Positions 2,591 through 41,402 of a stretch of 64,000 nucleotides of DNA are shown here, piece after piece. The translations under genes and the position numbers were made by a program. Source of the stretch: Escherichia phage vB_EcoS-26175I; the sequence record NC_133255.1. One strand, given 5' to 3'. The notes beneath the pieces were generated by a model. It did no database searches. It was not told the DNA's origin and was given only the letters and a program-made list of their open reading frames with translations. The first letter of the stretch is position 1. Every line of letters begins with the position of its first letter.

Positions 2591-2980
2591 TCACTCTTGT
2601 TTACTTAATTCTCTAGCACGACGTAGCGATCCAGCGGTTCTCCATAGTTTAATGTCGTCAACAACTTCTTTGTAGGGAGCAATAGTAAGACCTAGCGGCC
2701 CCGCTACCAACAGTCCAAAGAAACCAATTACACGCATGTAAAGCAAGCATTCTTTGGGAGTCATTGACTGGACAGCCTGTCTTTCCTCAGCACTGTCGAA
2801 CTCGTGTTCTTGATCGTCTAAACGTAGGTACTTAATAAACCATTCAGCAGAATATTCATCCAGATGACGAATAACTGCAATAGCATAGCCTAAACCAATA
2901 ATAAACCATGCTGCTACAATGAATAAAATAAAGCTCATGATATCTCCAGTTAAAGTTGAGGTCAGCGACCAACTCACCAC
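2591..2980 (-). CDS. small membrane protein
   Basis: two predicted TM segments; hairpin terminator downstream at 2527-2556. Confidence 0.4.
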   Translation of the reverse strand: MVSWSLTSTLTGDIMSFILFIVAAWFIIGLGYAIAVIRHLDEYSAEWFIKYLRLDDQEHEFDSAEERQAVQSMTPKECLLYMRVIGFFGLLVAGPLGLTIAPYKEVVDDIKLWRTAGSLRRARELSKQE

Positions 2981-18972: not shown

Positions 18973-19110
18973 TCGAATTTTTAAACTTTTTAGTGGAAAA
19001 ATCTCAAGGCATTTAGTGGTAGCACGTTGTTGCTGCAATAATAGTATATGATTCTAAAGAATTAAATACTAAAGACCTTAGTTGAATAACTTATGGGATT
19101 TTCTTTTACC

Positions 19111-19152
19111 TTAAATACAGAAAAGCCCGCGCTCTCGGAGGAAACGCGGGCT
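19111..19152 (-). terminator. rho-independent terminator downstream of SPFH gene
   Basis: stem agcccgcg / cgcgggct followed on minus strand by tttctgtattt. Confidence 0.55.
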
Positions 19153-19176
19153 TGTTTCGAAGATTACGTGGAACTA

Positions 19177-20121
19177 TTACTTATTACGCATATCCATAAT
19201 CATTTGACCATCGTAGCCAGTACCGACAACAGTCTGCGGTACACCACCTTGGTATTTTTCAGCACGAAGCATTTCAACTTCCAGCTGCTTCCAACGAATC
19301 ATTTCAGGAGTAATGGTACGTTGCAGAGCGGCGTTAGCTTCAGCTTCTTTCTTAGCTGCGTACAGTTTAGCATCTGCGTCACGTTCGTTAGCTACTGCCA
19401 TGTTTTCACGAGCGGAACGATCTGCCTCAGCTTGCTTAACTTTCTGCTGTGCTTCTTGTTCAACACGAGCCAGTTCAGCTTTTGCAGCGTTAACTTGTTC
19501 TTCACGAACTTTAGTGTTCTGTACCTGTTCCATGATTACCGGTGGCAGAGTAATATCCTGAAGGAATACTTGCTTAACCGTGTAACCATAAGGACGCGCG
19601 TACTCTTCTACCTCTTGCTGAATAGCAGTTTGCAGTTGAGCCTGAATCTTAGCGTCGAACAGATCTTGTGCTTTTGGTACGGACTTACCAAACTCACGAA
19701 TCGTAGACAGCATCTTCTCTTCAACGTATTTGTTCAGAGCCTGATCCTGAGTACCTGCGTTAACACGGTTCATAGGAGCTTTAGCACCATCAAACTGCAA
19801 CATAACGGTAATGTCAACAGTAGACTTAAACTTATCCTGGCTAGGAACCTGAAGTTTATCCAGTTTCATGGAAATATCTTTCGTACTAAAAGTATCAAAA
19901 GAAGCAAATGGGTTAACAATATGGAAGCCTGGCAATACAGGATTAGGGCTAACTTTACCCAGGAAGGTTTGAGTCTTAACAGTACCATCCTGAACAACTG
20001 TATAGGAATTGAGAGCCAGAATAAGAGCACCAAGACCAACAGCAGCACCAACACCCCAACGTTTAATAGTACGAATTACTTTTTGCTCAGAAGTCAGTTC
20101 TTTAGTGTTTTTAGTAAACAT
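19177..20121 (-). CDS. SPFH/band-7 (prohibitin/HflC-like) membrane protein
   Basis: N-terminal TM, SPFH-like core, C-terminal Ala/Glu/Gln-rich coiled coil; terminator hairpin 19111-19152 downstream. Confidence 0.65.
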   Translation of the reverse strand: MFTKNTKELTSEQKVIRTIKRWGVGAAVGLGALILALNSYTVVQDGTVKTQTFLGKVSPNPVLPGFHIVNPFASFDTFSTKDISMKLDKLQVPSQDKFKSTVDITVMLQFDGAKAPMNRVNAGTQDQALNKYVEEKMLSTIREFGKSVPKAQDLFDAKIQAQLQTAIQQEVEEYARPYGYTVKQVFLQDITLPPVIMEQVQNTKVREEQVNAAKAELARVEQEAQQKVKQAEADRSARENMAVANERDADAKLYAAKKEAEANAALQRTITPEMIRWKQLEVEMLRAEKYQGGVPQTVVGTGYDGQMIMDMRNK

Positions 20122-20132
20122 ATATTTCCTTA

Positions 20133-20333
20133 TTATTTAGAAGAGTTATCTACTACAGTTACTTTAGTTGCAGAAATAAATAGGCTAGCATCCACAGCAA
20201 ATTCAGGAGCTTTGATATCTCCATTATGAAATATGACTATACCGGAGACTACTTCAAATGCTAGTGCTGTAACATCGGTGGTCTTTAGTTGTGAATGTTC
20301 ACCTACTACTTTTACTATATATCGTGTTTTCAC
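20133..20333 (-). CDS. hypothetical protein
   Basis: 66 aa ORF. Confidence 0.3.
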   Translation of the reverse strand: MKTRYIVKVVGEHSQLKTTDVTALAFEVVSGIVIFHNGDIKAPEFAVDASLFISATKVTVVDNSSK

Positions 20334-20359
20334 TTTATTTTCCTAGCAGTTAATAAAAT

Positions 20360-20434
20360 TGGCCGAGGTGACAGGATTCGAACCTGCATAAAGGAATTTA
20401 GAAGACTCCTGCCTATCCCTTAGACTACACCCCG
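20360..20434 (-). tRNA. tRNA-Arg (anticodon TCT)
   Basis: T-arm acagg-attcgaa-cctgc; anticodon stem ggaat/actcc (one GU); loop ctTCTaa. Confidence 0.65.
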
Positions 20435-20442
20435 AGAATAAA

Positions 20443-20952
20443 TTACTTAATGATTTCGTTCAGTTTGGTTTGGCTTTCTAGCGCTGCTTTAGCTGATTTC
20501 TCAGCATCCCTAGCAGCACGTCGTGCTTTAGAGTCAATCAATAGCTTGTCATACTTGATATTAACGAACTCTTTAATATCATGGTAGAAACGTTGATGTG
20601 CCATGTATTCTTGTGCATCTGCATCGTAACAGCGCATATAGAAGTAATCACTAGGCTCTCCACGAAGTGTACGCTCTAGAATCTGAGGTCGATAACGACG
20701 TAATGTATCTTTCGCCATTTTTATTTCATCAGTTTCTTCACCAAGCTGAACTAGGTGATAAAGACGAGTATTGTCGATGTAATCCAAAGCTACGCTAAAG
20801 TATTCACCTTCTCGAAGATTGTATCCTGTAATCTCACTCATTTTCTCACGAGCTTGATCAAGTGTCAGGCGTTCTGGAAAATGTGCTATATGCAGAATAC
20901 GAGGGCAACACATTTCTTGATGATCAAAGATACAAGTTGTTCCTAGATTCAT
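20443..20952 (-). CDS. hypothetical protein
   Basis: 169 aa ORF downstream of the 1-kb ORF-poor region. Confidence 0.4.
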   Translation of the reverse strand: MNLGTTCIFDHQEMCCPRILHIAHFPERLTLDQAREKMSEITGYNLREGEYFSVALDYIDNTRLYHLVQLGEETDEIKMAKDTLRRYRPQILERTLRGEPSDYFYMRCYDADAQEYMAHQRFYHDIKEFVNIKYDKLLIDSKARRAARDAEKSAKAALESQTKLNEIIK

Positions 20953-21921
20953 ATTGATTCCTTTTGTTAGGTATTTTTAAGAACTCTCGTAAAAGTCCTT
21001 AAAGATACCCGGCGGTAGGTAGGGTCAGCCCCCTCAGATTAAGCTCTGCAGCCCTTCCGTCAGACAATATCTTCCAGTTTAAGTCAGGGTGACTTTGTGG
21101 TTATTCAGCTAAGGCTGATCGGCAGCTCTTAGGTCATGACTCCTCGTCGCTCTTTACTCACCGGCTAGGAAGTTATCTCGAGTTCTTCCTAGCTCTTTAG
21201 TCGTGCCATTAAGGTGCCTTCTAAGAGACTTACCTTTTCCCACTTTCGATTTGGGCATGTATCAGGTAAGGGTAGCCAAATCAGCATCCTAGTCCTACGG
21301 GGTCTCATCAAATTACATACCACCGCTTTTCGATATGTAATGCCCATGTCTATACGGGAGAAGAAAATGGGCATCTTTCTCTTCGTCTGATAGCTTGAAA
21401 AACGACTCCTCATGGAGGAAAAACTTCACTATCTAGGCTAAAGCCTAAAGTTCTTCTTTAATCCGGCAAAGCAAAACCGTAGTATATACTTTTCAGGAAT
21501 GGTTGGTTAGTCTGGAACCAACTACCGCGTGGTTTTGGCAGTGCACAGCTGCCTGCGATTGCTTCGCCATTAGAAGCACCAGTTATCCAACTCTTTCCGA
21601 CCGTGGGACTCGAACCCACATCTTCAGGCGGTGAAGCCCTAATAATACCTATTATACTAGGACGGCAGTGTTGTTACATAAGTGGTTTCGGCACCCCACT
21701 AACATAAACTAGAGAAGAGTTTACGAGATTTCGGGACAGCTCCCGAGTTTTCCGCAGATTTTCAGTTCCCTATCAATAGCAATAAGCGTTAGCTCGTAGC
21801 CTCTCTCAGAGTACTTACTAGTCTCCAACTCACCGACTCTATTCAGTGGAATAGCTATCCTAGTAGGAGTCACTAAACTCACTCAGCGTAATCGGCTCGC
21901 TGTTCTCTAATTTATGAATCT

Positions 21922-21950
21922 ATTATACAGAATTTTGAAGCGTTTAGCAA
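21922..21950 (-). promoter_or_regulatory. sigma70-type early promoter reading into the 1-kb ORF-poor region
   Basis: attata 21922-21927, tagcaa 21945-21950. Confidence 0.5.
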
Positions 21951-21958
21951 ATCAATTT

Positions 21959-22393
21959 TTAATTAAATTCGCCAGCAACCTGAGCAGCAACTTTACCCTC
22001 GTAACGACCAGGAAACTCTTCCTTAATCGCTTTCATTAGCTGGCCTTTAGTGATTCCAGAATTTAATTTAACCAGTTCGGCAAAGTAATTACGAATCTGT
22101 ACTTCTGATAACTGCTCTAACGCGTATTCGTATTCTAGACCCGCTAACAGATCGAGATATTCAGCATCCGGAGTATATTCAATGTTTGCCTTTTCAGCAG
22201 CCGCCTGAGTATTTTCGATTGCTTTGAACTGCGATTTAATCCAGTTAGTAAATTCTAACTTAGTTACGCAGTCCTTATCAATACGCTGCAAGTCACCTAA
22301 AATCGTACTTAGGTGCTTAACCGACACAGTGTCACCACGTTTGCGAGCAGCTTCAATCAACTCTCGCAGTACACGAATCATATTCGTACCCAT
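21959..22393 (-). CDS. hypothetical protein
   Basis: 144 aa ORF. Confidence 0.4.
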   Translation of the reverse strand: MGTNMIRVLRELIEAARKRGDTVSVKHLSTILGDLQRIDKDCVTKLEFTNWIKSQFKAIENTQAAAEKANIEYTPDAEYLDLLAGLEYEYALEQLSEVQIRNYFAELVKLNSGITKGQLMKAIKEEFPGRYEGKVAAQVAGEFN

Positions 22394-22584
22394 TATTTTA
22401 TTCCTAATGCTTGGTTAAAAGATTGTTCTGTCATAACTGCTGAGACTTTGGCGAAATCAAACTTCTTAGGATTTGTAGTAATTTCAGCAACGTTAGTAGT
22501 TTTAACTGTTTTCGTAGTACGAATACCGTGAGTGTTAACACCAATAATTACAACTGATTTCATATTTCGCTTTCCTCTCATCAA
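22393..22584 (-). CDS. hypothetical protein
   Basis: 63 aa ORF; promoter 22596-22624. Confidence 0.3.
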   Translation of the reverse strand: MMRGKRNMKSVVIIGVNTHGIRTTKTVKTTNVAEITTNPKKFDFAKVSAVMTEQSFNQALGIK

Positions 22585-22595
22585 TTTATACAGTT

Positions 22596-22624
22596 ATTAT
22601 ACAGAAATTTAAGGCTTTAAGCAA
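22596..22624 (-). promoter_or_regulatory. sigma70-type early promoter
   Basis: attata 22596-22601, aagcaa 22619-22624. Confidence 0.5.
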
Positions 22625-22632
22625 TCGAATTT

Positions 22633-23100
22633 TTAAGTTTTCTTAACCACAGGCTTGTAGAACGTATGGCCTTGAATCTTCGTTGTTTTCTTAAACTTCT
22701 TTGTCCAGTACGGTTTATCTTTACCACTATGGAAGTATAACGCTCCATGTGTTGGATCTTGTGGTAAATCAACGTAGTATATCACTCTAGCTAAATTCTT
22801 AGCAACTTGCCAAGCCTCATCGGTTTTATCAACTTTTGGTCTCTTGGCCACCCAAGAGAACTGGTTAGACTGATATACTACTTTACAGTAAGAATCAGGA
22901 AAAGTACCAGAGTTAACACGGTTTTTAGTAACCTGTGCAACTGCGATCATTCCTTTAGTGCCCTCACCTCGTGCTTCGAAGTAGATATTTTTTGCAATGC
23001 AATCAATCTGCTTTGAGTCGTAGGTCGCATGACTATTGAAGCTATAGGTTAGGGCAGCTATTAAAAGCAAAGCTGCCTTCATTTTATTTACTCCGGCCAA
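22633..23100 (-). CDS. SleB-like cell wall hydrolase
   Basis: signal peptide; NIYFEARGEG...AVAQVTKNRV...QFSWV matches SleB/Hydrolase_2 signature. Confidence 0.7.
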   Translation of the reverse strand: MAGVNKMKAALLLIAALTYSFNSHATYDSKQIDCIAKNIYFEARGEGTKGMIAVAQVTKNRVNSGTFPDSYCKVVYQSNQFSWVAKRPKVDKTDEAWQVAKNLARVIYYVDLPQDPTHGALYFHSGKDKPYWTKKFKKTTKIQGHTFYKPVVKKT

Positions 23101-23405
23101 TCGTACTCAATACGATTAGGGCTTTCTTGATACCCTTCGTCAAGCAAATCATTGCGCATGTTCTGCTTAGCTACAGGGTTCGAGGTTACTAGTACCACTT
23201 TCTTGGGTCTCTGACCAAATTCTAGGAGTAAACGAAGAATTTGATAACCTTCCATACCATCTACAGCCAGATCGTTATCCATATAAACGAAATGACCCGT
23301 GGTATCGGTTGTATTCAGAAACTCAATAGCGGCTTCGGGGGTTCGAATGATAATGTCCATTCCATGGAGGTTACGCACATCATCAATCAGAATATGAAAA
23401 ATCAT
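23088..23405 (-). CDS. hypothetical protein
   Basis: 105 aa ORF; promoter 23435-23464. Confidence 0.35.
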   Translation of the reverse strand: MIFHILIDDVRNLHGMDIIIRTPEAAIEFLNTTDTTGHFVYMDNDLAVDGMEGYQILRLLLEFGQRPKKVVLVTSNPVAKQNMRNDLLDEGYQESPNRIEYDWPE

Positions 23406-23434
23406 AATAGCCTCGTCTCATCAATTTAAAAATA

Positions 23435-23464
23435 TATTATACAGATAATTAAACTGTTTTGCAA
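23435..23464 (-). promoter_or_regulatory. sigma70-type early promoter
   Basis: attata 23435-23440, ttgcaa 23459-23464. Confidence 0.5.
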
Positions 23465-23845
23465 ATACATTTTTAGATTGAGAGAACTAGTAAACCGATA
23501 AACAGCCTAGAGGCGCCACAGGCCATATCTTATGAGCCATGTACCTTTGATCTAGGGTTTGAATCATCAACGAATACTTTGCATCTTTTAGCTTTAGAAG
23601 GTTAGAAGTTTGAGTGCTTTTAACTTTTCAGCTTTCATACTTGAGCGTTGATCTTTGAAGTTGTGTTGGTACTACCAACGACCGTTTTTACAGTTCAGCT
23701 TAAGAGGCTGGTGTAATAAACATAATCTCCAATAGATTATACTTTATAGTATGGTCAGCGGTCTTATTTAACCTCGTATTTCAACCGCTGCTGCGAGGTA
23801 AGATGCTTGGGCTTTCGTCTACCGATTTACTAGTCTTTTAAATTA

Positions 23846-24484
23846 TTACTCTACTTCGATAAAAGTAGAGGCGTTGGACTCAGACAGAACAAAGTCAACG
23901 TTGGTTGCAAAGTCCTGGTATTCTTCGTCGTGTTGCTTGATCAGCTTTTCCAGCTCCAGTGGATCGATCAGGAACGGAGTGTTCTTGAGTTCCAGCAGGT
24001 TAAGCTGCATCTTAACTTCATCCTCGGAAGTCTTCTTGTCGCGGGTAGCCATGGTATCCTGCAAACGCTCATACTTAGCATCAAACTGAGCTTTCTGAGT
24101 GTTAAACTTAACAGTAGCAGCATGGAACTGCTTACGCATGTTAGCCAGCAACTGAGCTTTGAGTTCCATAGAACGCTTAGCTTCGATTGCTTCCGCAACA
24201 GTCATAGAGCGCGAACCGATCTCTACAACAGTTTCAGCATTGCTCTTGATCAGCGCAGCTTTCAGACGATCACGCTGGGACATCATATCCAGCAGAGACT
24301 GGAAATCAGTCTTAATACGGGTAGACAGAGCATCTACTTCGATTGCAGCGCCAACGACAACTTGGTTCTTGTCCTTACCTTCACCAACAGCGATCAAAAG
24401 CTGTTGTTCAGTAGCTTTACGGATTTTAGCTTCCAGAGACTTGATAGTTGCCAGAGCACGAGTTTTAGAGATACGAGTAGTCAT
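23846..24484 (-). CDS. hypothetical coiled-coil protein
   Basis: 212 aa ORF. Confidence 0.4.
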   Translation of the reverse strand: MTTRISKTRALATIKSLEAKIRKATEQQLLIAVGEGKDKNQVVVGAAIEVDALSTRIKTDFQSLLDMMSQRDRLKAALIKSNAETVVEIGSRSMTVAEAIEAKRSMELKAQLLANMRKQFHAATVKFNTQKAQFDAKYERLQDTMATRDKKTSEDEVKMQLNLLELKNTPFLIDPLELEKLIKQHDEEYQDFATNVDFVLSESNASTFIEVE

Positions 24485-40690: not shown

Positions 40691-40781
40691 TTTTCATTAG
40701 TTCAATCCTGATTACCGAGTCATTTTGGCTCGGTTTTCTCCGTGCTCAAAGACACTGATAGCACCTTCGGAAAAATTTTAC

Positions 40782-40810
40782 TTGCAGGATGCTCAAAATC
40801 TTGGTATAAT
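40782..40810 (+). promoter_or_regulatory. sigma70 promoter with extended -10 (TGgTATAAT)
   Basis: ttgcag 40782-40787, tataat 40805-40810; followed by ~590-nt leader. Confidence 0.55.
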
Positions 40811-41402
40811 ATTTATATTGAATTGAGAGACATTAGTAAAAATTGATTTTGCTAATTTTTCTTAATGAAGCTGACAATGGATTTACGGCGAGAGCGATCG
40901 ATGACCCGTAAATAGCTGCATAAGGTACGTTGCTAGAGCTTTATGAAAAAGTTTTTCTTGTTTACAATCCGCAATACGGAACAGTTAGGCTGCCCCATTA
41001 AAGGTTGTTTTAACTATTACTAGTGTTTATACTGCATTAGTTAATTATCAATTAAGTGATCTGCGTACCCTGAATTCGGAAAGGTAAATCCAAACCGTGC
41101 ATATTTAGCTCGTTATATAGGCAGAGCTTTATATGGGGGTGCGAACGAAAAGAGCAGCGAATGGTGACACGTCCAGTAGCCACCTACCAATAGGATAGTG
41201 AGGGCAATCAGAATCGGCTTAGCGGCCAATGACCTAGGTTCTGATCTGGATAAGAGTTAAGAGAGCGCAGCACTGAGGTATGATAACTTATTCATACTGC
41301 TTGATGATGATTAATGTTTGTGTAAATGGTAGTAATAGTTGTTCTATTCTTTTGAATAGTCCTAAAGAAAGATATCCGAATAACCAACATAGGAGTATTG
41401 TT

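What the first reader, a model, noticed from the sequence alone, without database searches (positions are those of the whole stretch)
20953..21958. About 1 kb ORF-poor, GC-elevated region transcribed from an early promoter, with an embedded tRNA-like T-arm: candidate large structured RNA
Between the ORF starting at 20952 and the promoter at 21922-21950 there is ~1 kb with only one doubtful 74-aa ORF (21189-21413), in a genome otherwise packed with genes. It looks more GC-rich than its surroundings, contains many short inverted repeats, and carries a perfect tRNA T-arm on the minus strand (21604-21620, gtggg-actcgaa-cccac) without a full cloverleaf. It would be transcribed leftward as a long leader or stand-alone RNA.
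Basis: seen in the sequence. Interest (0 to 1): 0.75.

Follow-up and report, generated by a model that had tools for sequence, protein, structure and literature searches.

The report
Large structured RNA of T5-like phages
The 1-kb gene-free stretch encodes a roughly 950-base, non-coding, elaborately folded RNA with a built-in tRNA-shaped piece; it is conserved across T5-like phages, labelled only "RNAX" in one T5 database record, absent from RNA family libraries, and resembles the large "ornate" phage RNAs whose function is still unknown.

Summary
Window 20953-21958 is the largest stretch without an ORF of 80 aa or more in the 64 kb. Its GC is 0.443 against 0.399. It lies behind a strong T5 early-type promoter (TTGCTA-17-TATAAT, 21950-21922, minus strand).

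The window is Escherichia phage vB_EcoS-26175 (Epseptimavirus). The interval is orthologous to a 719-nt misc_RNA called "RNAX" in T5 record AY734508, which lies inside the st0 deletion.

I collected 57 distinct versions (642-1325 nt) from Epseptima-, Tequinta-, Sugarland-, Hongcheon- and Novosibvirus phages and Pantoea phage AAS21. They show no conserved ORF, no codon periodicity and indels that are not multiples of three. Base-pair covariation is strong: in the core block, 92.6% of cells pair and 25 of 40 pairs show compensatory changes, against 2-9 in slid controls.

- The 5' end is locked in a helix and the 3' end in a 17-18-bp hairpin.
- A 12-bp helix clamps the flanks of a tRNA-like module. 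The "tRNA-Sec" annotation is an artefact: orthologues get different anticodons or none, and three lineages carry a plain hairpin instead.
- One hairpin loop holds an invariant 8-nt palindrome, GUCAUGAC.
- Rfam has no match other than tRNA.

The closest analogues are GOLLD and ROOL. Function is not established. My best guess is a stable trans-acting scaffold RNA with an accessory role.

The parts
21922..21950 (-). Sigma-70 early-type promoter: -35 TTGCTA, 17-nt spacer, -10 TATAAT. Predicted start is the A at 21915 (AUAAAUUAGAG...).
   Evidence: 10 of 12 matches. The same promoter block is conserved in all relatives. T5 record AY734508 annotates 'promoter P16-17' at the orthologous place.
20967..21915 (-). 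The whole RNAX-family non-coding RNA, 949 nt. RNA position p corresponds to window position 21916 - p.
   Evidence: Orthologous to T5 misc_RNA 'RNAX'. 57 distinct homologues. No coding signal. z = -2.9.
21704..21915 (-). 5' domain (RNA 1-212), closed by helix P1. P1 pairs RNA 1-13 (AUAAAUUAGAGAA, 21915-21903) with RNA 200-212 (UUCUCUAGUUUAU, 21716-21704). Inside are the CAGCG/CGCUG hairpin, the CACUGA/UCGGUG hairpin, the UCGGGA/UCCCGA hairpin and the motif UCGUAAACUCUUCUCU.
   Evidence: P1 forms in every variant, including variants with matching indels on both strands. In T5 the domain is reduced to the bare P1 hairpin. In S113, SE7 and Tennessee it is replaced by a homing-endonuclease ORF.
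21529..21699 (-). Core domain closed by helix P3: GUGG (21699-21696) pairs with CCAC (21532-21529).
   Evidence: P3 covaries and is never broken: AUGG/CCAU in bobsandoy and KKP_3711, ACGG/CCGU in DU_PP_V, AUGGG/CCCAU in PM135.
21578..21686 (-). Clamp helix of 12 bp: ACCACUUAUGUAAC (21686-21673) pairs with GUUGGAUAACUGGU (21591-21578), with two conserved 1x1 mismatches. It encloses the tRNA-like module.
   Evidence: 100% of cells paired and 6 of 12 pairs compensatory in A1. 99.8% paired and 7 of 12 compensatory in 34 distinct sequences. Kept in DU_PP_V, AAS21 and PM135.
21596..21666 (-). tRNA-like module. The acceptor-like stem GCCGUCC/GGUCGGA carries G1.A72 and U5.U68 mismatches. It has a D-arm and the T-arm GUGGG-UUCGAGU-CCCAC (21619-21603). 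The 'anticodon' arm is non-canonical. GenBank annotates it as tRNA-Sec.
   Evidence: Orthologues score 26.6-38.3 bits against 49-73 for genuine tRNAs at those loci. ARAGORN assigns a different anticodon in each lineage, or none. Replaced by a plain hairpin in SH9, STG2 and PM135.
21561..21577 (-). Hairpin GCUUC-UAAUGGC-GAAGC (RNA 339-355).
   Evidence: Compensatory pair types at several positions (GCUUU/AAAGC, GCUUA/UAAGC, GGUUC/GAACC, GCGUA/UACGC).
21502..21553 (-). Two further hairpins: GGCAGC/ACUGCC (RNA 363-379) and GUUGGUU-CCAGACU-AACCAAC (RNA 394-414).
   Evidence: RNAalifold run on the window and its three closest full-length relatives, with compensatory changes (GACAG/CUGUC; GUUGAUU/AAUCAAC).
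21388..21461 (-). Conserved block AAAGAAGAACUUUAG...CUAGAUAGUGAAGUUUUUCCUCC-AUGA-GGAGUCGUUUUUCAAGCUAUCA. It holds the covarying hairpin UAGGC/GCCUA and a weak terminator-like hairpin with a U-run (21420-21406).
   Evidence: The hairpin has the forms UAGUC/GACUA and UAGAA/UUCUA in relatives.
21248..21387 (-). Lineage-specific module (RNA 529-668), shared only with SB13, bobsandoy and KKP_3711 and partly with Klebsiella phages. It holds most of the doubtful 74-aa ORF.
   Evidence: Block map. The ORF's start codon lies in a hairpin loop and is ACG in SB13. The longest sense ORF falls to 44-50 aa in relatives.
21131..21144 (-). Hairpin AGG-AGUCAUGA-CCU. Its loop carries the invariant 8-nt palindrome GUCAUGAC (21133-21140).
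   Evidence: The palindrome occurs once in the 64-kb window and in all 57 family members. The flanking stems covary (GGG/CCC, GGGG/CCCU, AGG/CCU, UGG/CCG).
21082..21118 (-). Hairpin UCAGC/GCUGA, motif AUAACCAC, and hairpin AGUCA-CCC-UGACU.
   Evidence: The first hairpin is replaced by unrelated complementary stems in other lineages (GUCCU/AGGAC, GUUCU/AGAAC, GC-GAAA-GC).
21012..21061 (-). Three-way junction. The outer helix CGGAAGG/CCUACCG has a conserved internal mismatch. Inside are two hairpins and the joining motif CUUAAU.
   Evidence: Six unrelated sequence versions, plus DU_PP_V and AAS21, all keep an outer helix at this position and at least the distal inner hairpin (the proximal one is missing in KKP_3711). 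This helix assignment is my own reading of the sequences; only 5 of 8 single-sequence folds recover it unaided.
20969..21010 (-). Terminal hairpin of 17-18 bp: GGGUAUCUUUAAGGACUUU-UACG-AGAGUUCUUAAAAAUACCU.
   Evidence: Almost identical in sequence as far as DU_PP_V. AAS21 has a remodelled version with complementary changes. In T5 it abuts tRNA-Arg.
20360..20952 (-). Co-transcribed downstream genes: a 169-aa ORF of unknown family (20443-20952) and tRNA-Arg(UCU) (20360-20434).
   Evidence: The ORF is absent in T5, SB13 and cott162, where tRNA-Arg follows the RNA directly.
19123..19153 (-). First strong intrinsic terminator downstream of the promoter (12-bp stem, 7 G-C pairs, U-run). It ends the operon.
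   Evidence: Orthologous to 'bidirectional terminator ter1' in the T5 record.
21959..22393 (-). Upstream neighbour: a 144-aa protein of the GatB/YqeY family. It is a candidate partner, not a demonstrated one.
   Evidence: PHROG 1460. Pfam YqeY full length at E 0.026, below threshold. Homologues at E 1e-35 to 1e-38 carry PF09424. Syntenic in DU_PP_V, AAS21 and PM135 but absent from Sugarlandvirus loci.

Best explanation
The interval is the gene for a roughly 950-nt non-coding, multi-domain structured RNA. It is the Epseptimavirus orthologue of the RNA annotated 'RNAX' in phage T5 and a member of a family confined to T5-like phages (Demerecviridae).

Shown here:
- It is preceded by a strong sigma-70-type promoter of the T5 early kind, so early transcription by host RNA polymerase is predicted.
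- It has no conserved reading frame.
- It folds into a string of helices kept by compensatory mutation: P1 locks the 5' end, P3 closes a core domain, and a 12-bp clamp carries a tRNA-shaped module.
- Further 3' come a hairpin presenting an invariant palindromic loop, a three-way junction and a long terminal hairpin.
- It is the first element of an operon: RNA, then orf169, tRNA-Arg(UCU), orf66 and an SPFH protein gene, ending at a terminator.
- Peripheral modules are swapped, deleted or replaced between phages around a constant core.

Inferred:
- The RNA is cut out of the primary transcript. In T5-type genomes RNase P would do this at the tRNA-Arg 5' end, a few bases after the terminal hairpin. 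In this phage a cut after the hairpin would be needed.
- It accumulates because both ends are base-paired.
- It acts in trans as a scaffold during early infection, in the manner of GOLLD and ROOL RNAs. It would present its conserved loops and the tRNA elbow to partners. Candidates are the neighbouring YqeY-family protein and host tRNA-handling or tRNA-targeting factors.
- It possibly pairs with a second copy of itself through the GUCAUGAC loop.

The function is accessory, because the orthologue lies in a viable T5 deletion.
For: - Orthology and annotation: BLAST blocks to T5 AY734508, where the interval between promoter P16-17 and tRNA-Arg is misc_RNA RNAX inside the st0 deletion.
- Non-coding:
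  - Substitutions are spread evenly over the three codon phases (47/42/45, 36/37/36, 59/69/64).
  - Indels have lengths 1, 2, 4, 5 and so on.
  - The longest sense ORF is not conserved.
- Structure, core block:
  - Alignment A1 (MAFFT): 91.6% of cells paired against 30-44% in slid controls. 17 of 40 pairs are compensatory against 1-3, and 0 of 500 shuffles reach this.
  - Alignment A3 (34 distinct sequences, four lineages, fitted to the model): 92.6% paired and 25 of 40 compensatory against 2-9.
- P1 forms in all variants.
- P3 covaries and is never broken.
- The 3' junction keeps its outer helix and distal hairpin in eight unrelated sequence versions.
- Distant orthologues found by the covariance model at syntenic positions:
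  - DU_PP_V, 91.4 bits.
  - AAS21, 142 bits.
  - PM135, 60.5 bits.
- Promoter and terminator layout.
- Invariant, unique palindrome in a covarying hairpin.
- GOLLD, ROOL and OLE oligomerise through symmetric palindromic kissing loops. GOLLD has a variable 5' region, a conserved 3' region, sometimes a tRNA in the linker, and sits near tRNA islands.
- Phage-only distribution:
  - No hits in E. coli genomes, plasmids or 100,044 species-representative genomes.
  - 32 IMG/VR contigs match; 31 are 104-123 kb and one is a 14.5-kb fragment.
Against: - There is no expression, end-mapping or stability data, so a discrete RNA is not shown.
- In this phage there is no terminator after the RNA and an ORF follows at once, so it may remain a 5' UTR.
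- No long-range helix linking the domains is supported. The candidates failed when modules were exchanged between lineages. It could therefore be a chain of independent modules rather than one compact fold.
- The palindromic loop never varies, so pairing between copies cannot be tested by covariation. It could instead be a DNA-level or protein-binding site.
- The YqeY gene is missing beside the RNA in Sugarlandvirus.
- The tRNA-like module is dispensable in three lineages.
- The sequences are phylogenetically clustered and alignment A3 was fitted to the model, which inflates the counts somewhat.
Confidence: 0.72

Rival explanations
1. The interval is mainly a long processed 5' leader. Its job is cis-acting control or correct processing of the downstream orf169, tRNA-Arg(UCU) and SPFH operon, with no trans function.
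For: - No terminator lies between the RNA and 19153-19123, and there is no other strong promoter for the downstream genes.
- tRNA-Arg(UCU) follows the RNA, directly or after small inserted ORFs, in every lineage examined.
- The terminal hairpin next to the tRNA is the most sequence-conserved part.
Against: - 650-1300 nt of covarying multi-domain structure is far more than known leaders need.
- The gene that follows differs between phages: tRNA-Arg directly, orf169, or other small ORFs.
- In PM135 the 3' domain and terminal hairpin are missing, yet the core is kept.
- No Rfam cis-regulatory family matches.
Confidence: 0.12
2. It is a genuine tRNA gene, either tRNA-Sec or a UGA suppressor as annotated in GenBank, lying in non-functional spacer DNA.
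For: ARAGORN calls tRNA-SeC(tca). The Rfam tRNA model gives 33 bits against a gathering score of 29. Four GenBank records annotate tRNA-Sec.
Against: - Orthologues are called Ser(act), Leu(tag), Ser(aga) or nothing.
- The 'anticodon' loop is a 6-nt GUAACU, a GAGA tetraloop or a 3-5-nt loop in relatives.
- Positions 1:72 and 5:68 are mismatched in most members.
- Both flanks are paired in a covarying 12-bp clamp.
- There is no long variable arm.
- The module is replaced by a plain hairpin in SH9, STG2 and PM135.
- The flanking 'spacer' is itself conserved and covaries.
Confidence: 0.03
3. It is a decayed protein-coding gene or a set of unannotated small ORFs.
For: A 74-aa ORF exists. PHANOTATE-type pipelines annotate 3-6 tiny 'hypothetical proteins' here in SB13, Torridgeon and Roth49.
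Against: - There is no codon periodicity, indels shift the frame, and ORF lengths and positions are not conserved.
- The 74-aa ORF starts in a hairpin loop and loses its ATG in SB13.
- Conservation follows base pairing, not reading frames.
Confidence: 0.02
4. It is a patchwork of independent small structured RNAs, tRNA relics and recombination scars. These would have been left by homing-endonuclease traffic in the tRNA island, with no collective function.
For: - The organisation is extremely mosaic.
- Homing-endonuclease ORFs sit inside or beside it.
- tRNA-derived pieces occur at different positions.
- No inter-domain helices are supported.
- It is dispensable in T5 st0.
Against: - The same ordered set of motifs and helices, and a dedicated strong promoter, persist across subfamilies whose neighbouring YqeY-family proteins are only 30-49% identical.
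- Invariant single-stranded motifs and a unique invariant palindrome imply purifying selection.
- Relics would not keep compensatory pairs.
Confidence: 0.07
5. The conserved features act at the DNA level, for example as a protein-binding palindrome, a replication or recombination site, or a nick site, rather than in RNA.
For: GTCATGAC and the terminal inverted repeat are palindromes in DNA as well. T5 DNA carries site-specific nicks, and the region is a recombination hotspot.
Against: - G-U wobble pairs are used on the transcribed strand only, for example UG at 21 of 34 sequences in one clamp pair. These would be A-C mismatches on the other strand.
- A strong promoter is placed exactly at the 5' end of helix P1.
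- The annotated T5 major nick lies elsewhere.
Confidence: 0.04

Closest known systems
'RNAX' misc_RNA of bacteriophage T5 (GenBank AY734508, tRNA-gene region; annotation only)
   Same: - Orthologous locus with the same order: YqeY-family gene, promoter, RNA, tRNA-Arg(UCU), SPFH gene, terminator.
- About 80% identity over the core block, plus the shared 3' blocks.
- The same P1, P3, clamp, tRNA-like module, palindromic loop and terminal hairpin.
   Different: - T5 RNAX is shorter: 719 nt as annotated, 725 nt from the promoter. Its 5' domain is reduced to the P1 hairpin, and it lacks RNA 529-668 of the window.
- It has a duplicated AGUCACC...AACUGGAA module and a perfectly paired acceptor-like stem.
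- The record gives no structure or function. I found no paper on it in the searchable library.
GOLLD RNA (Rfam RF01998)
   Same: - A large RNA (over 800 nt), phage or prophage encoded, often near tRNA islands.
- A variable 5' region and a conserved 3' region, with tRNAs sometimes embedded in the linker.
- Ornate, covariation-supported structure, conserved palindromic hairpin loops used for self-association, and unknown function.
   Different: - No match to the GOLLD covariance model at E up to 10 in the window or up to 5 in eight relatives.
- The hosts are Enterobacterales phages.
- Oligomerisation is not shown.
- The embedded element is a non-decoding tRNA mimic clamped in a helix.
ROOL RNA (Rfam RF03087)
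   Same: A large phage-associated structured RNA near tRNA genes, abundant, with no known protein partner, that self-assembles through kissing loops.
   Different: No covariance-model match. ROOL is about 580 nt and rich in pseudoknots. No pseudoknots were established here.
tRNA and tRNA-Sec (Rfam RF00005; GenBank annotation of this locus)
   Same: Acceptor-like, D- and T-arms with a conserved GG / UUCGA elbow. It scores just above the Rfam threshold.
   Different: There is no consistent anticodon or 7-nt loop, the flanks are base-paired, the 1:72 and 5:68 mismatches are conserved, and the module is replaceable by a hairpin.
tmRNA and bacterial Y RNA (YrlA), non-coding RNAs with a tRNA-like domain
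   Same: A tRNA-shaped module (acceptor-like stem, T-arm, D-loop) joined to a larger RNA through an extended helix. This comparison is from general knowledge.
   Different: ARAGORN finds no tmRNA and Rfam no tmRNA or Y RNA. There is no tag reading frame. The tRNA-like part is internal and contiguous, not formed by the RNA termini. The RNA is about five to eight times larger than YrlA.

Membership tests
T5 RNAX family (orthologues of the AY734508 misc_RNA) | Sequence homology to T5 RNAX | tested here: met
   79.6% identity over 339 nt, plus the promoter, 3' blocks and terminal hairpin. The covariance model built on the core scores T5 at 178.9 bits and the window at 166.7 bits; both were training sequences, so they match by construction.
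T5 RNAX family (orthologues of the AY734508 misc_RNA) | Synteny: downstream of the YqeY-family gene and its own early promoter, upstream of tRNA-Arg(UCU) | tested here: met
   The same order holds in AAS21, DU_PP_V and PM135.
Structured non-coding RNA (generic) | Compensatory base-pair changes well above controls | tested here: met
   (17 of 40 pairs against 1-3 in slid controls; 0 of 500 shuffles). (25 of 40 against 2-9). Also.
Structured non-coding RNA (generic) | Absence of protein-coding signal | tested here: met
   Even substitution phases, frame-breaking indels and non-conserved ORFs.
Structured non-coding RNA (generic) | Discrete, stable transcript in infected cells | not testable with these tools
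   No RNA-seq or Northern data available. Only the promoter and terminator layout is known.
tRNA (RF00005) | Score at or above the Rfam gathering threshold with a full cloverleaf | tested here: met
   33 bits against 29. This is among the lowest of the window's tRNA hits.
tRNA (RF00005) | Canonical 7-nt anticodon loop and an anticodon conserved among orthologues | tested here: not met
   Loops are GUAACU (6 nt), GAGA or 3-5 nt. ARAGORN gives tca, act, tag, aga or no call.
tRNA (RF00005) | Single-stranded 5' leader and 3' trailer, so that a free acceptor end can be made | tested here: not met
   The flanks form a covarying 2-bp plus 12-bp extension of the acceptor-like stem. Whether RNase P still cuts was not tested.
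tRNA-Sec | Extended acceptor/T-stem geometry (8+5 or 9+4 bp), long variable arm, 6-bp D-stem | tested here: not met
   The variable region is about 5 nt and the D-stem 3-4 bp. ARAGORN's 8-bp acceptor needs two mismatches. The definition of tRNA-Sec is from general knowledge.
GOLLD (RF01998) | Match to the family covariance model | tested here: not met
   No hit at E up to 10 (window 19000-24000) or E up to 5 (eight relatives).
GOLLD (RF01998) | Homo-oligomeric nanocage assembly | not testable with these tools
   Only an invariant palindromic loop is seen. This needs native gels or cryo-EM.
ROOL (RF03087), OLE, raiA and other large Rfam RNAs | Match to the family covariance model | tested here: not met
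   tRNA is the only family to reach its gathering score. All other matches were far below their thresholds and, where shown, had E-values of 0.35 or worse.
tmRNA | tRNA-like domain formed by the termini plus a tag-peptide reading frame | tested here: not met
   ARAGORN, whose search covers tmRNA genes, and Rfam find none.
Group I/II introns, RNase P RNA, riboswitches and leaders | Match to the family covariance model | tested here: not met

The most novel reading that the evidence does not exclude
RNAX is a previously undescribed class of large 'ornate' phage RNA. It would self-associate through the invariant GUCAUGAC kissing loop and display a tRNA-shaped elbow, making it a functional counterpart of GOLLD and ROOL. 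It would sit in the genetically tractable T5 / E. coli system and be used early in infection to capture tRNA-handling or tRNA-targeting host factors, for counter-defence or translation takeover.
Probability: 0.22. Interest if true: 0.88.

Novelty: new variant of a known kind. Interest (0 to 1): 0.74.

Why it matters
Large ornate phage RNAs such as GOLLD and ROOL are now known to form RNA-only assemblies, but their function is unknown. From memory, their best-studied examples come from organisms and metagenomes far less tractable than E. coli.

This RNA has the same general character. It is 0.65-1.3 kb, built from modules that covary, placed next to a tRNA island, and carries an embedded tRNA-like piece and a palindromic loop. 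It sits in T5-like phages of E. coli and Salmonella.

Precise deletions, defence-system libraries and biochemistry are routine in that system. A natural deletion (T5 st0) already shows the RNA is dispensable in the laboratory. That makes the question of what such RNAs do directly testable.

There is also an annotation consequence. Some phage records label its internal module tRNA-Sec or tRNA-OTHER, and others fill the interval with tiny hypothetical ORFs. Both are mis-annotations.

Tried and rejected
- Rfam scans: permissive scans of the window region and of eight relatives, and a gathering-threshold scan of the whole window. Only tRNA reached its threshold.
- Literature: searches for RNAX, T5 non-coding RNA and T5 transcriptomes found nothing on this RNA. 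Two searches failed because a term was too short.
- Cell-wall hydrolase as an anchor for distant T5-like phages: the family is too widespread to help.
- Candidate long-range helices were rejected because they are not kept when modules are exchanged between lineages, or because their registers differ:
  - GUGG with the AUAACCAC motif.
  - GCGGU 388-392 with ACCGC 900-904.
  - GGAUUA 452-457 with UAACC 813-817.
  - UGCCGA 223-228 with UCGCA 358-362.
- The local hairpin AGAU/GUCU with CUG/CGG, predicted by free energy in some 3' modules, is not conserved.
- RNAalifold on the raw MAFFT alignment of the 3' block missed the variable hairpins because they are out of register. I compared the sequence types by hand and by single-sequence folds instead.
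- GGA-motif enrichment (a CsrA-sponge idea), counted by eye: no excess.
- Origin outside phages: searches of E. coli genomes, plasmids and species-representative bacterial genomes found nothing.
- I did not run a structure prediction of the YqeY-like protein. Homologues carrying the Pfam domain made it unnecessary.
Full report
**1. Observation**

The window is 100% identical over the interval to Escherichia phage vB_EcoS-26175II-V, an Epseptimavirus of the Demerecviridae.

- The interval 20953-21958 is the longest stretch in the 64 kb without an ORF of 80 aa or more on either strand. The next gaps are tRNA clusters.
- GC is 0.443 against a window mean of 0.399, in the top 3.7% of 1-kb windows.
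- The promoter is real as a consensus match: TTGCTA-17-TATAAT at 21950-21922 on the minus strand. It is followed by the conserved AGATTCATAAATT block. I recall that block from T5 early promoters but did not verify this.
It belongs to a full but imperfect cloverleaf found by ARAGORN (tRNA-SeC tca, 21594-21667) and by Rfam's tRNA model (33 bits against a threshold of 29).
- The 949-nt transcript folds better than shuffles, z = -2.9.

**2. What the locus is**

BLAST finds partial matches in 535 phage records, all in a mosaic pattern. One is T5 record AY734508. There the interval between 'promoter P16-17' and tRNA-Arg is annotated as a 719-nt misc_RNA, 'RNAX'. It lies within the region removed in the viable st0 deletion mutant.

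I found no paper on this RNA in the searchable library.

I assembled 53 distinct full-length versions from GenBank phages, IMG/VR and metagenomes. I then added Pectobacterium phage DU_PP_V (Mccorquodalevirinae), Pantoea phage AAS21 and Proteus phage PM135 (Novosibvirus).

Lengths from the predicted start to the terminal hairpin run from 642 to 1325 nt.

The family appears confined to T5-like phages:
- A core pattern hits 32 IMG/VR contigs. 31 are 104-123 kb and one is a 14.5-kb fragment.
- It hits nothing in 100,044 species-representative bacterial genomes.
- BLAST finds nothing in E. coli genomes or plasmids.

**3. It does not code for protein**

- Between the window and its three closest full-length relatives, substitutions fall evenly on the three codon phases: 47/42/45, 36/37/36 and 59/69/64.
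- Indels have lengths 1, 2, 4, 5 and so on.
- The longest sense ORF changes from 74 aa to 44-50 aa.
- The 74-aa ORF starts in the loop of a conserved hairpin (CCUCC-AUGA-GGAG), and its ATG is ACG in SB13.
- The larger ORFs seen in a few relatives are of three kinds:
  - an HNH/AP2-type homing endonuclease that replaces the 5' domain (S113, SE7, Tennessee);
  - the upstream gene, picked up by my extraction;
  - chance read-through.

**4. It is structured**

RNA position p corresponds to window position 21916 - p.

- **P1** pairs the very 5' end (1-13) with 200-212. It forms in every variant, including those with matching insertions on both strands. In T5 the whole 5' domain is reduced to this hairpin.
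- **P3** (GUGG 217-220 with CCAC 384-387) becomes AUGG/CCAU, ACGG/CCGU and AUGGG/CCCAU in other lineages and is never broken.
- **The clamp** (230-243 with 325-338) is a 12-bp helix that joins the two flanks of the tRNA-like module.

Counts for the core block:

| Alignment | Sequences | Cells paired | Slid controls | Compensatory pairs | Slid controls | Shuffles reaching it | Clamp |
|---|---|---|---|---|---|---|---|
| A1, MAFFT | 20 | 91.6% | 30-44% | 17 of 40 | 1-3 | 0 of 500 | 100% paired, 6 of 12 compensatory |
| A3, fitted to model R1 | 34 distinct, four lineages | 92.6% | 30-42% | 25 of 40 | 2-9 | 0 of 500 | 99.8% paired, 7 of 12 compensatory |

A3 was fitted to the model, which favours the structure.

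Further 3' there are covarying hairpins at 339-355, 363-379, 394-414 and 469-482. After them come:
- a hairpin at 772-785 with covarying stems;
- a variable hairpin at 798-811;
- the AGUCA-CCY-UGACU hairpin;
- a three-way junction whose outer helix and distal inner hairpin are kept in eight unrelated sequence versions, with a mismatch always at the same place in the outer helix;
- a 17-18-bp terminal hairpin.

Between the helices lie near-invariant single-stranded motifs: UCGUAAACUCUUCUCU, GGUGYSGAA, AACACU, AAACCAC, AAGUGGGAAA, AUAACCAC, AACUGGAAGAUA and CUUAAU.

I found no supported helix linking one domain to another. Several candidates failed because lineages that have exchanged modules would break them.

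**5. The tRNA-like module**

Its T-stem, D-stem and acceptor-like stem covary, and the GG / UUCGA elbow nucleotides are conserved. It is nevertheless not a decoding tRNA.

- ARAGORN calls the orthologues SeC(tca), Ser(act), Leu(tag), Ser(aga) or nothing.
- The 'anticodon' arm ends in a 6-nt GUAACU loop, a GAGA tetraloop, a 3-5-nt loop or a long extra hairpin.
- 15 of the 34 distinct sequences have a non-standard pair at position 1:72 (G.A in the window), and the other 19 have G.U. 24 of 34 have a non-standard pair at 5:68 (U.U in the window). Both mismatches are kept even in DU_PP_V, while neighbouring pairs changed compensatorily.
- Its ends are buried in the clamp.
- In SH9, STG2 and PM135 a plain hairpin takes its place.
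- PM135 carries a different mini tRNA-like piece in its 5' domain.

The module is therefore a peripheral, replaceable, tRNA-derived element. The GenBank labels 'tRNA-Sec', 'tRNA-OTHER' and 'tRNA-Pro' are artefacts.

**6. Transcription unit**

The only strong promoter is at the RNA's 5' end.

The first strong terminator on that strand is at 19153-19123, after the SPFH gene. It is orthologous to T5 'ter1'.

The RNA is thus the first part of a 2.8-kb operon: RNA, orf169, tRNA-Arg(UCU), orf66, SPFH gene.

In T5, SB13, cott162 and DU_PP_V the terminal hairpin is followed within a few bases by tRNA-Arg. RNase P cleavage would then leave a hairpin-protected 3' end. That step is inferred.

In the window a 169-aa ORF of no known family is inserted there, with its ribosome-binding site straight after the hairpin.

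A weak terminator-like hairpin with a U-run lies inside a conserved block (21420-21406).

**7. Comparison with known RNAs**

No Rfam 15 family other than tRNA matches the window or eight relatives, even at permissive E-values. The RNA is therefore not a recognisable member of GOLLD, ROOL, OLE, tmRNA, RNase P, intron or riboswitch families.

In character it is closest to GOLLD and ROOL. Those are large phage RNAs often near tRNA islands. GOLLD has a variable 5' region, a conserved 3' region and sometimes tRNAs in the linker. OLE, GOLLD and ROOL all self-assemble, partly through symmetric kissing loops with palindromic sequences.

RNAX has an invariant 8-nt palindrome, GUCAUGAC, in the loop of a covarying hairpin. 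It occurs once in the 64-kb window and in all 57 members, including PM135, where the module sits in a different place. Because it never varies, pairing between copies cannot be tested by covariation.

**8. Possible partner**

The gene just upstream encodes a 144-aa protein.

- It matches PHROG 1460, 'tRNA amidotransferase'.
- It matches Pfam YqeY over its full length, but below threshold at E 0.026.
- Homologues at E 1e-35 to 1e-38 carry PF09424.

From general knowledge, the YqeY-type tail domain of GatB contacts the tRNA D-loop or elbow region.

The gene is syntenic with the RNA in Markadamsvirinae, DU_PP_V (49% identity), AAS21 and PM135. It is missing beside the RNA in Sugarlandvirus and is rare in Klebsiella phages. 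It is therefore at most an optional partner.

**9. Most likely mechanism**

| Claim | My estimate |
|---|---|
| Conserved structured non-coding RNA that works as RNA | about 0.9 |
| Excised and accumulates as a stable species | about 0.6 |
| Acts as a trans-acting scaffold in the GOLLD/ROOL manner, presenting the tRNA elbow and conserved loops to tRNA-handling or tRNA-targeting factors | about 0.3 |
| Self-associates through the palindromic loop | about 0.25 |

Excision would be helped by its paired ends and by RNase P cleavage at the adjacent tRNA. The function is accessory, since the T5 orthologue lies in a viable deletion.

The main rival is a purely cis-acting leader for the downstream operon. 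The real-tRNA, decayed-gene, junk-mosaic and DNA-level readings are poorly supported.

**10. Limits**

- There are no expression data.
- The sequences are phylogenetically clustered.
- The 3' junction rests on my reading of the sequence types plus single-sequence folds.
- No tertiary or inter-domain contacts are established.
- Function is inferred by analogy with RNAs whose own function is unknown.

Noticed in passing
L026 (Salmonella phage S113), sense coordinates 829-1326; the same in L027 (SE7), L018 and L032 (Tennessee): A 160-165-aa ORF begins right at the RNAX promoter and replaces the whole 5' domain of the RNA. Its sequence contains an HNH-like motif and a pattern I read by eye as AP2-like, and the Tennessee record annotates the orthologue as a homing endonuclease. 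The core and 3' domains are left intact.
   Followed up: partly
window 20443-20952 (-): A 169-aa ORF with no Pfam, PHROG or NCBIfam match lies between the RNA and tRNA-Arg. It is present in some relatives (bobsandoy, KKP_3711, S132, STG2, oselot; a probable counterpart with a similar N-terminus in AAS21) and absent in T5, SB13, cott162 and SH9. Its N-terminus contains a CC motif (MNLGTTCIFDHQEMCCP).
   Followed up: partly
window 23091-23405 (-): A 105-aa protein matches Pfam cREC_REC, the 'cyclic-phosphate processing receiver domain' (E 1.3e-15). From memory, this domain has been linked to RNA-end repair contexts. It lies about 1.1 kb upstream of the RNAX promoter in the same early gene block.
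   Followed up: no
window 22393-22584 (-): A 63-aa protein matches DUF7616 (E 7e-34). Its gene overlaps the start of the YqeY-family gene by one base.
   Followed up: no
window 19123-19153 (-); weak Thr_leader/Leu_leader Rfam hits at 19054-19160: A strong G+C-rich hairpin with U-runs lies between convergent genes, orthologous to the 'bidirectional terminator ter1' next to the major DNA nick in the T5 record. The Rfam 'leader' hits there are just this terminator.
   Followed up: partly
L073 (Proteus phage PM135) 5211-5545 (+): After tRNA-Arg there is a second T5-type promoter (TTGCTA...TATAAT), followed by about 300 nt without an annotated gene before tRNA-Tyr. This may be another non-coding RNA. 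The PM135 record also leaves tRNAs in this 2.1-kb gap unannotated.
   Followed up: no
L004 (T5 AY734508) about 2700-2870 (-): T5 RNAX contains a tandem duplication of the AGUCACCUUGAC-UAAACUGGAA module, separated by an insert of about 85 nt that itself looks like a long hairpin. Metagenome contig L034 has the same.
   Followed up: no
L002 (SB13), L008/L009 (Klebsiella phages), L025, L029: A conserved extra module of about 250 nt is inserted in the 5' domain just after the 3' strand of helix P1. It is shared between Salmonella and Klebsiella phages at moderate identity, and no Rfam family matches it.
   Followed up: partly
window 40691-41279 and 23406-23845: Two further stretches (589 and 440 nt) have no ORF of 80 aa or more and no tRNA. 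They were not examined.
   Followed up: no
L038 and L028 (Tequintavirus-type contigs): Individual members carry damage in the tRNA-like module: a D-arm deletion in L038 and a T-loop/T-stem substitution in L028. The clamp and core stay intact, consistent with relaxed constraint on that module.
   Followed up: partly
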